Assembly (NCBI RefSeq): GCF_006345805.1
Contig: NW_021825255.1
Span: 1-16,468, forward strand
DNA: 16,468 nt
Reading direction: 5' to 3'
From: Octopus sinensis
Lineage: Eukaryota
Of the stretch, positions 3,486-16,468 are shown piece after piece (the stretch's first letter is position 1; every line of letters starts with the position of its first letter). Position numbers: made by a program.

Positions 3486-4802
3486 AATGCACACACACAC
3501 ATTATGTATATATCCAATGCTATATATATATATATATATAGCATTGGATACCATGAACCACTGCTATATATATATAGCTGGAGTGAAGAACAGCTCTTTT
3601 GAGAGGTTACACTTTCCGCTTATGATGTTGTGAGCGAGAATGAGATTACCACGGCATCGTCTAGGGGGACATGGAGTTATGTACAGGGTGGTGTTCATGT
3701 AAAGAGTTCTGGCCACTTGATGTCAAGGGAGACTTTCAACCAAGCGGTCATCGGCATCTTCACCATCTCATCTGGCAGCTTGTTCCACGGATCCGCAACC
3801 CGGATGGAGAGAGCTCCTCTCATTTGATTGAGATGAAATCGTCGCAGGTAGAGCCTTTCGGAATGACACCGCAGCCGACTCTCTGGAGCAGGAGTGAAGA
3901 ACAGCTCTTTCGAGAAGTTACACTTTCCGCTTATGATGTTGTGAGCGAGAATGAGATCACCACGGCGTCGTCTAGGGGGACATGGAGTTATGTACAGGGT
4001 GGTGTTCATGTAAAGAGTTCAGGCCTCTTGAGGTCAAGGGAGGCTTTGAACAAAGCGGTCATCGGCATCTTCACCATCTCATCTGGCAGCTTGTTCCACG
4101 GATCCGCAACTCGGACGGTGAAAGCTCCTCTCCTTCGATTGAGATGAAATCGTCGCAGGTATAGCTTTTCGGAATGACCCCGCAGCCGACGCTCTGGAGC
4201 AGGAGTGAAGAACAGCTCTTTCGAGAGTTTACACTTTCCGCTTATGATGTTGTGAGCGAGAATGAGATCACCACGGCATAGTCTAGGGGGACATGGAGTT
4301 AAGTACAGGGTGGTGTTCATGTAAAGAGTTCAGGCCACTTGAGGGCAAGGGAGGCTTTGAACAAAGCGGTCATCGGCATCTTCACCATCTCATCTGGCAG
4401 CTTGTTCCACGGATCCGCAACCCGGACGGAGAAAGCTCCTCTCCTTCGATTGAGATGAAATCGTCGCAGGTAGAGCTTTTCGGAATGACACCGCAGCAGA
4501 CGCTCTGGAGCAGCTCTTTCGAGAGGTTACACTTTCCGCTTATGATGTTGTGAGCGAGAATGAGATCACCACGGCGTCGTCGTTTTTCTAGAGAATAAAG
4601 GTCGAGCGTCTTCAGCCTTTCTTCATAAGACAAATTCTTGAGACCAAGAACCATGCGGGTAGCCAGCTTCTGGACTCTTTCGAGATGCTGTATGTCTTTG
4701 AGGAGATAAGGAGAAGAGGCTTGAATATTAAGGTGACAAACAGTTTACATCTCTCATATAATATCAAGTCGGAGAAACACAAGCACACACGCACACACTC
4801 AA

Positions 4803-4836
<34 letters not shown>

Positions 4837-5166
4837 CACATGCATATGATCACATACACTTGCACACAAACACATGTACACATGGATGCACACATGCACA
4901 TGTGCACATACACAAATGCAGAAATGCACACACTAAGTCAAACATATACTCTTTACTCTTTTACTTGTTTCAGTCATTTGACTGTGGCCATGCTGGAGCA
5001 CCGCCTTTAGTCGAGCAAATCGACCCCGGGACTTATTCTTTGTAAGCCCAGTACTTATTCTATCGGTCTCTTTTTGCCGAACCGCTAAGTAACGGGGACG
5101 TAAGCACACCAGCATCGGTTGTCAAGCAATGCTATTGGGACAAACACAGACACACAAAACACACAT

Positions 5167-5202
<36 letters not shown>

Positions 5203-12708: not shown

Positions 12709-12746
<38 letters not shown>

Positions 12747-15700
12747 GCACCCACTACACTCTCGGAGTGGTTGGCGTTAGGAAGGGCATGCAGCTGTAGA
12801 AACATTGCCAGATAAGACTGGAGCCTGTGCAGCCTTCTGGCTTCCCAGATCCCCGGTCGAACCATCCAACCCATGCTAGCACGGGAAACGGACGTTAAAC
12901 GATGATGATGATGATGATACGCTTGAAATCCAAGAAAATGGTGAACCACAGTATTAAGCTTATTAACCCAAAAAATGCTCTAGGACCGCACCATTCTGTG
13001 GTTGATCTCTGCGAGTATGTCATGAGGAGATAGGAAAATTGCAGTTTGTTTGATAAACTCCTAGAGTGCATGGCAAACTTTGGTTTTTGAATATTTACTC
13101 CAAAAATGTATTCTCTTTCACTTGTTTCAGTCATTTGACTGCGGCCATGCTGGAGCACCGCCTTTAGTCGAGCAAATCGACCCCGGGACTTATTCTTTGT
13201 AAGCCCAGTACTTATTCTATCGGTCTCTTTTTGCCGAACCGCTAGGTGACGGAGACGTAAACACACCAGCATCGGTTGTCAAGCAATGCTAGGGGACAAA
13301 CACACACACATATATATATATATACATATATACGACAGGATTTCTTGATATCAGTGTTGTGGAGGGAGTATGTGGACGCAGGGTTTTTTCTCCCAAAATG
13401 CATGGTGGTACACTTGTCCACAGCCAGTTTCACTGCTGACAGTGATGCCTAGGTCACGCTTGCAAGAGGATTTCTTGATATCAGTGTTGTGGAGGGAGTA
13501 TGTGGACGCAGGGTTTTTCTCCCAAAATGCATGGTGGTACACTTGTCCACAGCCAGTTTCACTGCAGACAGTGATGCCTAGGTCACGCTTGCAAGAGGAT
13601 TTCTTGATATCAGTGTTGTGGAGGGAGTATGTGGACGCAGGGTTTTTTCTCCCAAAATGCATGGTGGTACACTTGTCCACAGCCAGTTTCACTGCTGACA
13701 GTGATGCCTAGGTCACGCTCGCAAGAGGATTTCTTGATATCATGTTGTGGAGGGAGTATGTGGACGCAGGGTTTTTTCTCCCAAAATGCATGGTGGTACA
13801 CTTGTCCACAGCCAGTTTCACTGCTGACAGTGATGCCTAGGTCACGCTCGCAAGAGGATTTCTTGATATCATGTTGTGGAGGGAGTATGTGGATGCAGGG
13901 TTTTTTCTCCCAAAATGCATGGTGGTACACTTGTCCACAGCCAGTTTCACTGCTGACAGTGATGCCTAGGTCACGCTCGCAAGAGGATTTCTTGATATCA
14001 GTGTTGTGGAGGGAGTATGTGGACGCAAGGTTTTTTCTCCCAAAATGCATGGTGGTACACTTGTCCACAGCCAGTTTCACTGCTGACAGTGATCCCTAGG
14101 TCACGCTCGCAAGAGGATTTCTTGATATCAGTGTTGTGGAGGGAGTATGTGGACGCAGGGTTTTTTCTCCCAAAATGCATGGTGGTACACTTGTCCACAG
14201 CCAGTTTCACTGCTGACAGTGATCCCTAGGTCACGCTCGCAAGATGATTTCTTGATATCAGTGTTGTGGAGGGAGTATGTGGACGCAGGGTTTTTTCTCC
14301 CAAAATGCATGGTGGTACACTTGTCCACAGCCAGTTTCACTGCTGACAGTGATGCCTAGGTCACGCTCGCAAGAGGATTTCTTGATATCATGTTGTGGAG
14401 GGAGTATGTGGATGCAGGGTTTTTTCTCCCAAAATGCATGGTGGTACACTTGTCCACAGCCAGTTTCACTGCTGACAGTGATCCCTAGGTCACGCTCGCA
14501 AGATGATTTCTTGATATCAGTGTTGTGGAGGGAGTATGTGGACGCAGGGTTGTTTCTCCCAAAATGCATGGTGGTACACTTGTCCACAGCCAGTTTCACT
14601 GCTGACAGTGATGCCTAGGTCACGCTCGGAAGAGGATTTCTTGATATCAGTGTTGTGGAGGGAGTATGTGGACGCAGGGTTGTTTCTCCCAAAATGCATG
14701 GTGGTACACTTGTCCACAGCCAGTTTCACTGCTGACAGTGATGCCTAGGTCACGCTCGGAAGAGGATTTCTTGATATCAGTGTTGTGGTGGGAGTATGTG
14801 GACGCAGGGTTGTTTCTCCCAAAATGCATGGTGGTACACTTGTCCACAGCCAGTTTCACTGCTGGCAGTGATGCCTAGGTCACGCTCGCAAGAGGATTTC
14901 TTGATATCAGTGTTGTGGAGGGAGTATGTGGACGCAGTGTTTTTTCTCCCAAAATGCATGGTGGTACACTTGTCCACAGCCAGTTTCACTGCTGACTGCC
15001 TAGTATGCCTAGGATTTCTTGATATCAGTGTTGTGGAGGAGTATGTGGACGCAGGGTTTTGTCTCCCAAAATATGGTGGTACACTTGTCCACAGCCAGTT
15101 TCCACTGCTGACGGTGATGCCTAGGATTTCTTGATATCAGTGTTGTGGAGGGAGTATGTGGACGCAGTGTTTTTTCTCCCAAAATGCATGGTGGTACACT
15201 TGTCCACAGCCAGTTTCACTGCTGACAGTGATGCCTAGGATTTCTTGATATCAGTGTTGTGGAGGGAGTATGTGGACGCAGGGTTTTGTCTCCCAAAATG
15301 CATGGTGGTACACTTGTCCACAGCCAGTTTCACTGCTGACGGTGATGCCTAGGATTTCTTGATATCAGTGTTGTGGAGGGAGTATGTGGACGCAGGGTTT
15401 TTTCTCCTAAAATGCATGGTGGTACACTTGTCCACAGCCAGTTTCACTGCTGACAGTGATGCCTAGGATTTCTTGATATCAGTGTTGTGGAGGGAGTATG
15501 TGGACGCAGGGTTTTTTCTCCCAAAATGCATGGTGGTACACTTGTCCACAGCCAGTTTCACTGCTGACAGTGATGCCTAGGATTTCTTGATATCAGTGTT
15601 GTGGAGGGAGTATGTGGACGCAGGGTTTTTTCTCCTAAAATGCATGGTGGTACACTTGTCCACAGCCAGTTTCACTGCTGACAGTGATGCCTAGGATTTC

Positions 15701-16468
15701 TTGATATCAGTGTTGTGGAGGGAGTATGTGGACGCAGGGTTTTTTCTCCCAAAATGCATGGTGGTACACTTGTCCACAGCCAGTTTCACTGCTGACAGTG
15801 ATGCCTAGGTCACGCTCGCAAGAGGATTTCTTGATATCAGTGTTGTGGAGGGAGTATGTGGACGCAGGGTTTTTTCTCCCAAAATGCATAGGGGTACACT
15901 TGTCCACAGCCAGTTTCACTGCTGACAGAGATGCCTAGGTCACGCTCGCAAGAGGATTTCTTGATATCATGTTGTGGAGGGTGTATGTGGACGCAGGGTT
16001 TTTTCTCCCAAAATGCATGGTGGTACACTTGTCCACAGCCAGTTTCACTGCTGACAGTGATGCCTAGGTCACGCTCGCAAGAGGATTTCTTGATATCAGT
16101 GTTGTGGAGGGAGTATGTGGACGCAAGGTTTTTTCTCCCAAAATGCATGGTGGTACACTTGTCCACAGCCAGTTTCACTGCTGACAGTGATGCCTAGGTC
16201 ACGCTCGCAAGAGGATTTCTTGATATCAGTGTTGTGGAGGGAGTATGTGGACGCAAGGTTTTTTCTCCCAAAATGCATGGTGGTACACTTGTCCACAGCC
16301 AGTTTCACTGCTGACAGTGATGCCTAGGTCACGCTCGCAAGAGGATTTCTTGATATCAGTGTTGTGGAGGGAGTATGTGGACGCAGGTTTTTCTCTCCAA
16401 AATGCATGGTGGTACACTTGTCCACAGCCAGTTTCACTGCTGACAGTGATGCCTAGTCACGCTCGGAA

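What the first reader, a model, noticed from the sequence alone, without database searches (positions are those of the whole stretch)
3580..16468. Retro-satellite nursery: LINE ORF2 C-terminal segments converted to tandem arrays three times within 13 kb
Seen: 311-bp, ~265-bp and 130-bp arrays each come from the region downstream of the RT core of a CR1/L2-group LINE; D ends and two SINE heads are also tandemly reiterated. Arrays range from 2 to more than 25 units, like a developmental series. Established: TE-derived satellites exist, but are usually reported as single cases. Inference: a general local mechanism (template switching or slippage at microsatellites, rolling-circle amplification of small circles, or RT re-priming), possibly subtelomeric/pericentromeric, and a possible source of piRNAs against these LINEs.
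Basis: inference. Interest (0 to 1): 0.7.

Follow-up and report, generated by a model that had tools for sequence, protein, structure and literature searches.

The report
LINE-tail tandem arrays in octopus DNA
Four head-to-tail repeat arrays in this octopus-like stretch are dead copies of the tail end of LINE (jumping-gene) reverse-transcriptase genes, a known route by which satellite DNA is born, here packed unusually close together.

Summary
TRF finds fixed-period arrays of 311 bp (x3.3 and, inverted, x2.0), 264-272 bp (x5.9) and 130 bp (25 or more units, running off the window). Protein searches map every unit onto the part of a CR1-type LINE ORF2 that follows the RT catalytic core. These arrays fill 49% of the span.

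- The two 311-bp arrays share one junction, so that duplication arose once and was then copied.
- The 266-bp and 130-bp units lack the LINE 3' end, and their units fall into nested similarity groups. This points to stepwise DNA-level growth, not repeated insertion or a single RT event.
- The smallest arrays are the most diverged, so the set is not a developmental series.
- The ORF2-tail bias is what 5' truncation predicts.
- The SINE and "D" clusters are a different, irregular phenomenon.

TE-derived tandem repeats, including CR1 ORF2/3'UTR-derived ones, are already documented genome-wide (PMC3389668, PMC9659126). A local hotspot, piRNA output and chromosomal position could not be tested because no eukaryotic genome was available. 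One oddity remains: two arrays from different LINE families begin one codon apart at the same conserved ORF2 motif.

The parts
3576..4581 (-). 311-bp array 'a', 3.3 units. Each unit holds the last ~92 codons of a CR1-type ORF2, its stop codon and 33 nt of 3'UTR. The last unit is cut at 3576 by TA-rich DNA.
4582..4726 (-). Unique upstream ORF2 part of CR1 copy 'a', continuous with the array. The LINE is 5'-truncated at about 4726 (about aa 794 of the 932-aa reference P0078).
6100..6364 (+). Unique upstream ORF2 part of CR1 copy 'b' (from about aa 754-766 of P0078), continuous with array 'b'. About 91% identical to an Octopus vulgaris protein (P0206), by my count from the alignment.
6365..6986 (+). 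311-bp array 'b', 2.0 units, inverted relative to 'a'. It has the same junction breakpoint (CCCCCTA|GACGACGCC).
9572..9702 (-). End of the second LINE family's ORF2 (stop at 9572-9574), continuous with the last 266-bp unit. The 3'UTR continues to roughly 9480 (end not determined).
9703..11273 (-). 264-272-bp array, 6 units. Each holds 235-237 nt (codons ~910-989 of the 1033-aa reference P0121), and the five junctions between units each carry a 27-37-nt (ATCT)n filler.
11274..11337 (-). Upstream ORF2 remnant of the same 5'-truncated LINE copy (P0121 aa 889-915), continuous with the first unit.
13337..16468 (-). 130-bp array. It holds 25 unit starts plus a 31-nt partial unit at the window end, so it runs off the window. 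Each unit covers ~43 codons starting about 35 residues after the YADD box of a CR1-type RT.
14990..15789 (-). Block of 7 consecutive 114/115-bp units (u06-u12). Six (u06-u11) share one 16-bp deletion flanked by CCT; in u12 (115 bp, 6.3% from consensus) the 16-nt gap is placed 3 nt further on.
13113..13346 (+). SINE body, microsatellite and the last few nt of a SINE head. It is joined to the truncated last 130-bp unit at an imperfect microhomology (AAGAAATCCT versus AAGAAGCCT).
5652..5995 (-). Two head-to-tail copies of a tRNA-like SINE head (97% alike), each followed by a short TA tract, upstream of one SINE body.
7434..7704 (+). Second SINE type. Its 141-bp head is doubled (93% identity) and only the second copy continues into the body.
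8143..9440 (-). 'D' cluster: one long copy plus three 3'-terminal ~165-190-nt copies. Each ends in a CAT/ATG-type tail, the 5' ends fall at reference positions 423-441, and spacing is irregular.
12387..12919 (+). Two further D 3'-end copies, inverted relative to the 8143-9440 cluster.

Best explanation
This is a repeat-saturated stretch of an octopod genome. Non-coding relics of the 3' quarter of LINE ORF2 have been duplicated in tandem at the DNA level and then amplified step by step.

(1) The 311-bp unit (last ~92 codons, stop, 33 nt of 3'UTR of a CR1-type LINE) was duplicated once. The resulting dimer was then copied to a second place, most likely carried inside the LINE when it retrotransposed. 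This gave two inverted arrays with different 5' truncation points. Array 'a' later gained units.

(2) The 264-272-bp unit (codons ~910-989 of a second, cephalopod LINE family) was duplicated inside one 5'-truncated copy. A microsatellite grew at the junction. The unit with its filler was then amplified to six copies, the last three very recently.

(3) The 130-bp unit (~43 codons just after the RT catalytic core) became a homogenised array of 25 or more units. Its visible edge is a microhomology junction with a SINE.

The first duplications are inferred to be rare illegitimate events with little or no homology, such as replication template switching or slippage. Growth is inferred to be in-register unequal exchange or slippage. 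The arrays have no coding function: every unit carries a stop or shifts the frame.

The bias towards the ORF2 tail follows from 5' truncation, which makes 3' fragments the commonest LINE DNA. The clustering reflects a region that tolerates or favours tandem duplication, not a LINE-specific machine.

Shown: the arrays, their LINE coordinates, the junction sequences and the nested unit similarity. Inferred: the molecular events, the retrotransposition of the 311-bp dimer, and the permissive region.
For: Arrays and periods.

LINE mapping:
- 311 unit = P0078 aa 834-927 of 932.
- 266 unit = P0121 aa 910-989 of 1033. The first unit runs on upstream to aa 889 and the last runs downstream to aa 1026 and the stop.
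- 130 unit = P0078 aa ~696-750, with RVT_1 at 499-717.

311 arrays:
- All 5 of 5 copies of the 18-nt 3'UTR end in the window lie at unit ends. Four of them are followed by the next unit, at one shared breakpoint.
- The two arrays are inverted, share no flanks and have different 5' ends, at 4726 and about 6100.

266 array:
- Units v3=v4=v5 are 100% alike at the compared positions (v5 has a 2-nt gap), v6 is 99.2%, and v1/v2 are 96-98%.
- The fillers after v2, v3 and v5 (v4 nearly so) share the same CAAT interruption, so the filler was part of the copied unit.

130 array:
- Mean 1.3% from consensus.
- There are 7 adjacent short units (114/115 bp); six share one 16-bp deletion and the seventh has the gap offset by 3 nt. 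Other variants fall in partly adjacent groups.
- Identity falls only from 97.7% at lag 1 to 97.1% at lag 8.
- The edge joins a SINE at a 9-of-10 microhomology.

No unit length is a multiple of 3, and stops occur in all frames.

All 4 LINE fragments whose ends are visible in the window are 3'-terminal pieces starting at aa ~754, ~794, ~889 and ~937-953 of ORFs of 932-1041 aa.

Precedents:
- TE-derived tandem repeats expand by local duplication (PMC3389668).
- CR1 ORF2/3'UTR lies inside the chicken HinfI repeat, and there are L1 ORF2-derived satellites (PMC9659126, passages).
Against: - The initiating events are not observed. No convincing flanking direct repeats were seen at the 311 or 266 breakpoints, only 3-5 nt at best (my reading).
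- The 5' edges of the 311 and 266 units lie one codon apart at the same conserved motif in two LINE families. A purely random DNA-level origin makes this a 1-3% coincidence before correcting for the several comparisons made.
- 49% of 12.9 kb in LINE-derived arrays is far above the 0.32% of the human genome in TE-derived tandem repeats. A real local or LINE-specific process therefore cannot be excluded.
- Within the 311 arrays, 4 informative sites are array-specific (b1=b2) and only 2 are position-specific (a1/b1, a4p/b2). Two further informative sites unite a3 with b2. The 'born once, then copied' history therefore needs later homogenisation within arrays.
- The true 3' end of the CR1 element is unknown, so the 311 junction might be tail-to-internal.
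- The far edge of the 130-bp array is outside the window.
Confidence: 0.58

Rival explanations
1. Family-level repeats. Each array is an internal tandem repeat of a LINE subfamily, as in human L1PA or LTR12. It was delivered here by retrotransposition, so nothing local made the arrays.
For: - The 311-bp array occurs twice with the same junction, with different 5' truncation points and no shared flanks.
- The 266 array sits inside a single LINE copy that is continuous on both sides.
- Human multi-locus TE-derived repeats of this kind are documented (PMC3389668).
Against: - Three 266-bp units are identical at all compared positions (one has a 2-nt gap) while two others differ by 3-4%, so at least part of the growth was local and recent.
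- The 130-bp array has no LINE sequence at its visible edge.
- The only close database relative of the 311 family (P0206) ends at the stop codon, so it says nothing about tandem copies.
- No other genomic copies could be examined.
Confidence: 0.2
2. RT-made duplications. During target-primed reverse transcription the LINE RT jumped back on its template, or re-primed, and wrote the first tandem copies. A conserved site in the RNA (the RRR-coding motif) acted as the jump or stop point.
For: - The 5' edges of the 311 and 266 units are 3 nt apart at homologous codons of two families.
- The 311 unit ends only 33 nt past the stop codon, possibly at or near the element's 3' end.
- Tail-to-internal LINE tandems are common in Drosophila (PMC5932611, section on non-LTR elements).
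- Template jumping by non-LTR RTs is known (recalled, not checked here).
Against: - The 266 and 130 units lack the LINE 3' end, so they cannot be separate insertions.
- The (ATCT)n filler with a shared interruption, and the nested unit similarity, show stepwise DNA-level growth.
- The units have no unusual predicted structure (z -0.2 to -0.7).
- The boundaries of the 130-bp unit and of the unrelated CR1-derived repeat P0149 fall elsewhere.
Confidence: 0.12
3. Rolling-circle or eccDNA origin of the 130-bp array. A small circle carrying the unit was amplified and re-integrated by end joining next to the SINE.
For: - The array is very homogeneous.
- There is no parental LINE at the visible edge, and the junction uses microhomology.
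- LINE-derived episomal circles exist in a yeast model (PMC3510499, abstract only).
Against: - Local blocks of shared variants and a 7-unit block of deletion-bearing units fit in-register unequal exchange equally well.
- The other edge was not seen.
- No circle data are available.
Confidence: 0.07
4. Functional locus. The cluster is part of a piRNA cluster or a centromere- or telomere-associated domain that is selected for.
For: Repeat density is high, and 3 of 4 LINE-derived arrays have the same orientation.
Against: - No telomere repeat (0 matches).
- No RNA family hit (0).
- Orientation 3 of 4 carries no statistical weight.
- No expression or position data are available.
Confidence: 0.05
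5. Assembly artefact: the arrays were created or inflated by mis-assembly.
For: Long tandem arrays are error-prone in assemblies, and the 130-bp array runs off the window.
Against: The units carry structured, unit-specific variants, indel blocks and distinct junction fillers. Collapse or duplication errors would not create these.
Confidence: 0.03

Closest known systems
Chicken HinfI (SCR1) tandem repeat containing a CR1 element (Li & Leung 2006, as cited in review PMC9659126; passages and table seen)
   Same: A tandem repeat whose unit contains the 3'UTR and a partial ORF2 of a CR1 LINE. This matches the 311-bp unit in kind.
   Different: Different phylum and LINE lineage. Here there are three separate units from different ORF2 segments within 13 kb. 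I did not see the original paper or its unit structure.
L1-derived satellites: cetacean common satellite (L1 3' part), PROsat of Phodopus (ORF2), Pvc20 of Phoca (ORF2) (review PMC9659126)
   Same: A LINE ORF2 or 3' segment turned into a tandem array.
   Different: Those derive from the L1 clade and are mostly large genomic satellites. The arrays here are short (2 to 25 or more units), and only for the 311 unit is a second locus known.
TE-derived minisatellites/satellites of the human genome (Ahmed & Liang 2012, PMC3389668; abstract and Results read)
   Same: - Internal TE segments in tandem, mostly 2-3 units, expanding by local duplication.
- Some are propagated inside the TE.
- Most are not explained by known initiation models.
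- Partial 5' duplication of a SINE next to a full copy is also described.
   Different: That survey saw no genomic hotspots, and such repeats made up 0.32% of the genome. Here 49% of 12.9 kb is LINE-derived array.
Tandem TE dimers by double insertion in Drosophila (McGurk & Barbash 2018, PMC5932611; abstract and non-LTR section read)
   Same: Head-to-tail TE copies as seeds of satellites. The D and SINE-head clusters, and possibly the 311 junction, look like tail-to-internal tandems.
   Different: The 266-bp and 130-bp junctions are internal-to-internal, so insertion cannot have made them.
Satellites born from short tandem arrays inside LTR retrotransposons in Lathyrus sativus (Vondrak et al. 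2019, PMC7004042; abstract only)
   Same: Short arrays inside dispersed retroelements occasionally expand, preferentially in particular chromosome regions. This is the published form of the 'nursery' idea.
   Different: Those are LTR elements in plants, with non-coding regions as the source. The chromosomal position here is unknown.

Membership tests
CR1-group LINE ORF2 (source of the units) | Significant protein homology of the unit to ORF2 proteins that carry an apurinic-type endonuclease plus RVT_1 | tested here: met
   - E down to 2.5e-41.
- E 8.5e-64.
- E 3e-14 for P0148.
- references P0078, P0022, P0121 and P0124 all have Exo_endo_phos(_2) plus RVT_1.
- the two families align to each other over the C-terminal region at 36-46% identity.

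Finer clade assignment (CR1 versus L2 versus Rex1) was not tested, because no TE library was available.
CR1-group LINE ORF2 (source of the units) | Unit position lies downstream of the RT catalytic core | tested here: met
   - units map at P0078 834-927, P0121 910-989 and P0078 ~696-750.
- RVT_1 lies at 499-717 (P0078) and 559-790 (P0121).
- The 130-bp unit overlaps the last ~20 residues of the Pfam envelope and starts about 35 residues after YADD.
TE-derived tandem repeat / satellite DNA | Head-to-tail units of fixed period | tested here: met
TE-derived tandem repeat / satellite DNA | Long arrays at one or many loci (satellite in the strict sense) | tested here: inconclusive
   The 130-bp array has 25 or more units (at least 3.1 kb) and is cut by the window end. 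The other arrays have 2-6 units. Genome-wide copy number is not testable here.
Tail-to-internal tandem by repeated insertion (double-insertion model) | Every unit ends with the element's own 3' end or tail | tested here: not met
   - 266 unit: ends inside the ORF, 44 codons before the stop.
- 130 unit: internal to ORF2.
- 311 unit: inconclusive. It ends 33 nt past the stop, and the true 3' end of the element is unknown.
- D and SINE-head clusters: the feature is met.
TE-internal tandem repeat propagated by transposition (multi-locus TE repeat) | The same junction at two or more loci, with independent insertion features | tested here: met
   This row applies to the 311 unit only.
- Same breakpoint in both arrays.
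- Different 5' truncation points (4726 versus about 6100).
- No shared flanks.

A local inverted DNA copy is not excluded. The 266 and 130 units could not be tested.
piRNA cluster | Dense small-RNA production from nested TE fragments | not testable with these tools
   No expression data. Orientation is 3 of 4 on one strand, which is uninformative.
Subtelomeric / pericentromeric domain | Chromosomal position, or telomere or centromere repeats nearby | tested here: inconclusive
   0 telomere-repeat matches in the window. The position on the chromosome is unknown.

The most novel reading that the evidence does not exclude
The cluster is a true local hotspot in which LINE 3' modules are repeatedly converted into tandem arrays by a directed process. 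The conserved RRR-coding motif of CR1-group ORF2 would be a preferred start point, through RT stalling or template switching or a replication-fragile site. This would explain why two arrays from different LINE families begin one codon apart. It would also give octopod genomes a recurring, LINE-fed source of new satellites.
Probability: 0.12. Interest if true: 0.6.

Novelty: new member of a known kind. Interest (0 to 1): 0.3.

Why it matters
The locus preserves three differently built LINE-derived arrays side by side, with readable junctions:
- one with no filler;
- one with a microsatellite filler that was copied along with the unit;
- one with a microhomology edge to a SINE.

That makes it a compact teaching case for how satellites start from retroelement debris in a cephalopod. 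My searches found no satellite-origin study for that group.

It does not change the known picture, in which TE-derived tandem repeats are common and grow by local duplication. It would matter more if a genome-wide count showed either real regional clustering or a preferred start site in ORF2. Either would point to a specific initiating mechanism, which even in the human genome is unknown for about 94% of TE-derived repeats (PMC3389668).

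Tried and rejected
- **Pfam on 9 translated array ORFs.** There were no meaningful hits, because Pfam RVT_1 stops before these segments. Weak hits to TSR, MBD_C and others on the repetitive 130-bp translation are below cut-off and were ignored.
- **tRNA and Rfam scans.** Both returned 0, so the SINE heads are too diverged to be called.
- **Search for the tandem junction elsewhere.** I queried the 107-aa ORF that spans a 311-bp junction. Only 1 of 8 candidates passed: P0206 from Octopus vulgaris. It is a normal single C-terminus ending at the stop codon. 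This says nothing either way about tandem copies elsewhere.
- **Two top hits.** P0147 (15 stretches) and P0157 (21 stretches) turned out to be unrelated repetitive proteins that match the out-of-frame half of the query. I dropped them.
- **Hairpin-driven slippage.** DNA folds of one unit of each array are no better than shuffles (z -0.22, -0.53, -0.71).
- **Flanking direct repeats (Haber-Louis model).** Only 3-5-nt matches at the 311 and 266 breakpoints, by eye. I rejected this as evidence.
- **Twin priming for the inverted 311 pair.** Rejected, because both arms contain the same 3' segment.
- **Positional orthology of 311 units.** The signal is mixed: 4 array-specific sites against 2 position-specific ones (a1/b1, a4p/b2), plus 2 sites uniting a3 with b2.
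- **Telomere motif.** 0 matches.
- **Chicken repeat paper PMC4992247.** The passages held nothing on CR1-derived arrays.

- Any search of a eukaryotic genome or of reads.
- The metagenome and viral collections, which are closed.
- Supplementary files of papers were not opened. The supplementary repeat tables of PMC13282606 and PMC6279123 might list tandem-repeat content for octopus genomes.

Full report
**What is there**

TRF finds six fixed-period arrays with periods over 100 bp inside 3580-16468:

| Coordinates | Period (bp) | Copies | % matches |
|---|---|---|---|
| 3576-4581 | 311 | 3.3 | 93 |
| 6365-6986 | 311 | 2.0 | 90 |
| 9703-11273 | 266 | 5.9 | 96 |
| 13337-16465 | 130 | 25.0 (cut by window end) | 94 |
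| 5652-5991 | 175 | 1.9 | 96 |
| 7434-7704 | 141 | 1.9 | 93 |

Together they cover 6,939 of 12,889 bp (54%). The four LINE-derived arrays cover 6,328 bp (49%).

**LINE origin**

Pfam does not reach these segments, so I used protein searches.
- The ORF leading into the second 311-bp array gave 153 proteins with E<=0.001 among 443 candidates. Almost all are bird or turtle CR1-type ORF2 proteins, with the best at E 2.5e-41.
- The ORF at the end of the 266-bp array gave 26 of 264. The best are a 1033-aa ORF2 (P0121, 87% identity, E 8.5e-64) and a named Argonauta hians protein (63%).
- An exhaustive search with two 130-bp units gave 59 proteins with E<=0.001. After dropping two unrelated repeat proteins (P0147, P0157), the best are short RT fragments at 67-77% identity. 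In them the unit begins about 35 residues after the YADD box.

The reference proteins carry endonuclease plus RVT_1. tblastn of these references against the window gives the coordinates:
- The 311 unit covers aa 834-927 of 932. That is the last ~92 codons, the stop codon and 33 nt of 3'UTR.
- The 266 unit covers aa 910-989 of 1033.
- The 130 unit covers aa ~696-750 of 932, with RVT_1 ending at 717.

The 311 and 266 families are different LINE lineages, only 36-46% identical over the shared region. I could not settle whether the 130-bp unit comes from the 311 family.

A named Octopus vulgaris protein (P0206) is about 91% identical to copy b by my count from the alignment. The window therefore most likely comes from an octopus or a close relative. 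That is an inference, not a database identification.

**Anatomy of the arrays**

311 bp:
- All five copies of the 3'UTR end in the window sit at unit ends. Four of them are followed by the next unit, at the same breakpoint CCCCCTA|GACGACGCC.
- The two arrays are inverted with respect to each other and share no flanks.
- They hang on CR1 copies with different 5' ends, at 4726 and about 6100.
- After the last unit of array b the sequence continues differently. Whether the unit ends at the element's true 3' end is unknown.

266 bp:
- The array lies inside one 5'-truncated LINE copy. The first unit is continuous with upstream ORF2 (to aa 889). The last is continuous with the rest of the ORF, the stop at 9572-9574 and the 3'UTR.
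- Each of the five junctions holds a 27-37-nt (ATCT)n filler. The fillers after units 2, 3 and 5 (and, nearly, unit 4) share one CAAT interruption, so the filler was already part of the unit when it was copied.

130 bp:
- There are 25 unit starts plus a partial unit at the window end.
- The only visible edge has no LINE sequence. The last unit is cut at AAGAAATCCT and joined to the 3' end of a SINE head (AAGAAGCCT, then GTCGT and a TA tract), an imperfect 9-of-10 microhomology.

**How the arrays grew**

- 311 units are 89-96% alike. a1/a2 are closest at 96.3%, and b2 has 16 private changes.
- Informative sites in the 311 arrays are mixed. Four are shared by b1 and b2 only, one by a1 and b1, one by the two last units (a4p, b2), and two by a3 and b2. 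The unique 145 bp upstream differ at only 2 positions.
- Since independent events would hardly hit the same breakpoint, I read this as one original duplication that was copied to a second place. Some homogenisation and extra duplication within each array followed.
- 266 units: three are 100% alike at the compared positions (one has a 2-nt gap), a fourth is 99.2%, and the two 5'-most are 96-98%. That is a nested, stepwise history.
- 130 units: mean 1.3% from the consensus. Seven adjacent units are short (114/115 bp): six share one 16-bp deletion flanked by CCT, and the seventh, the most diverged unit, has the gap offset by 3 nt. There are several local blocks of shared variants, and identity declines slightly with distance. 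This pattern fits in-register unequal exchange or slippage.
- No unit length is a multiple of three, and stops or frame shifts occur in every unit. The arrays are not coding.

**The SINE and D clusters are a different thing**

The 'D ends' are ~165-190-nt 3'-terminal pieces.
- Each has its own CAT/ATG-type tail.
- The 5' ends of the four short 3'-terminal D copies inside the finding's span fall at reference positions 423-441. One longer copy there starts at 338, and a further copy outside the span (2118-2277) starts at 459.
- Spacing is irregular, at 193-286 bp.
- Four lie at 8143-9440 and two, inverted, at 12387-12919.

This looks like serial insertion of a short retroposon, or of strongly 5'-truncated copies, next to earlier tails and TA tracts. 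It matches the double-insertion picture of McGurk and Barbash (PMC5932611).

The two SINE-head doublets are head-only copies next to a full element. The same pattern is described for partial Alu next to full Alu in the human survey.

**Most likely mechanism**

The 266 and 130 units lack the LINE 3' end, so they cannot be separate insertions or products of RT re-priming at the tail. Their nested similarity, and the copied filler, speak for DNA-level growth.

The sequence I infer is:
1. A rare illegitimate first duplication with little or no homology.
2. In the 266 case, a microsatellite growing at the junction.
3. Unequal exchange or slippage in register.

For the 311 unit, I infer that the dimer then travelled inside the CR1 element.

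The preference for the ORF2 tail needs no special cause. All four LINE fragments with visible ends in the window are 3'-terminal pieces of under 200 codons, as 5' truncation produces. Any duplication of LINE DNA will therefore mostly hit this part.

The 'developmental series' does not hold, because divergence runs opposite to copy number.

**What stays open**

- The density of arrays is high. The human survey found no hotspots and 0.32% genome coverage. In Lathyrus, retroelement-derived arrays expand mainly in pericentromeres (PMC7004042, abstract).
- Whether this window lies in such a region could not be tested. No eukaryotic genome collection was available, there is no telomere repeat in the window, and there are no expression data.
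- One observation does not fit a purely random origin. In a gapless alignment of the two families (LYSLEKRRRR / LYSLERRRER), the 311 unit starts in the second base of the first R codon after K. The 266 unit starts in the second base of the next aligned codon, 3 nt away.
- I put the chance of this at 1-3% before allowing for the handful of boundary comparisons I made. Unit folds give no structural reason.

**Comparison with what is known**

- The review PMC9659126 (passages and table) lists the chicken HinfI repeat, which contains CR1 3'UTR plus partial ORF2. It also lists L1 ORF2- or 3'-derived satellites in hamster, seal and cetaceans.
- Ahmed and Liang counted 7,276 TE-derived minisatellites/satellites in the human genome. 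They showed growth by local duplication, with initiation explained for only 6%.
- In the protein library I met an independent case. P0149 is a 4,625-aa unnamed protein made of at least 33 units of 138 aa. In each unit, 88-94 residues match avian-type CR1 ORF2 aa 688-775 at 67-68% identity, the same post-RT segment as the 130-bp unit. Its source could not be looked up.
- My searches for cephalopod work on satellites or LINE-derived arrays found genome and repeat-annotation papers but none describing such arrays. These include PMC13282606 (first third of the text plus searched passages) and PMC6279123 (passages). Subscription journals and supplements were not covered.

**Verdict**

The kind of thing is known. 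The locus is a new, neat example in a cephalopod, not a new mechanism.

The local-nursery and piRNA ideas are untested rather than refuted. The shared start point of two arrays is the only feature worth a genome-wide follow-up.

Noticed in passing
window 4575-4583 and 11271-11275 (LINE sense = minus strand): The 5' edges of the 311-bp and 266-bp units fall 3 nt (one codon) apart at the homologous, conserved LYSLE(K/R)RR(R/E)R motif of two different LINE families.
   Followed up: partly
protein P0149 (library hit, no locus): An unnamed 4,625-aa predicted protein made of at least 33 near-identical 138-aa units. Each contains avian-type CR1 ORF2 aa 688-775. This is an independent CR1 post-RT satellite in another genome, source unknown.
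   Followed up: partly
proteins P0003, P0004, P0006, P0008, P0009, P0111, P0118: 7 bird CR1-like annotated proteins repeat their last 110 residues internally. In all, 10 of the 92 fetched proteins of 400 aa or more do so. P0003 has a 191-aa duplication at 87% identity. These could be real CR1 3' tandem copies or fused gene models.
   Followed up: no
window 216-1346: A 1.1-kb impure (TA)n tract, with further TA/TG microsatellites up to 3481. GC is only 16-17% in the first 1.5 kb.
   Followed up: no
window 1646-1918 (-): Another 3'-terminal LINE ORF2 fragment related to the 266-bp family (aa ~937-1039 of the references, 31-38% identity), outside the finding's span and not tandem.
   Followed up: no
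window 2118-2983: More copies of the same short elements: a D 3' end (2118-2277, +), a SINE body (2446-2676) and an inverted pair of SINE heads (2696-2823 on the minus strand, 2852-2983 on the plus strand).
   Followed up: no
window 9001-9427: The body of the long D copy is itself a degenerate tandem repeat of roughly 65-70 bp (self-matches at 77-82% identity), below TRF's threshold.
   Followed up: no
window 3318-3453: A 60-bp x 2.3 repeat (97% matches) made of TA/TG microsatellite plus a short unique motif, directly beside the truncated end of the first 311-bp array.
   Followed up: no
arrays at 3576-4581, 6365-6986, 9703-11273, 13337-16465: CpG observed/expected differs strongly between arrays: 0.80-0.84 in the 311-bp arrays, 0.22 in the 266-bp array and 0.33 in the 130-bp array. 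Cause unknown; it may reflect source sequence or methylation history.
   Followed up: no
window 13337-13346: The 130-bp array occupies exactly the place where the head of a composite SINE (head, microsatellite, body) would be. The join is at a 9-of-10 microhomology.
   Followed up: yes
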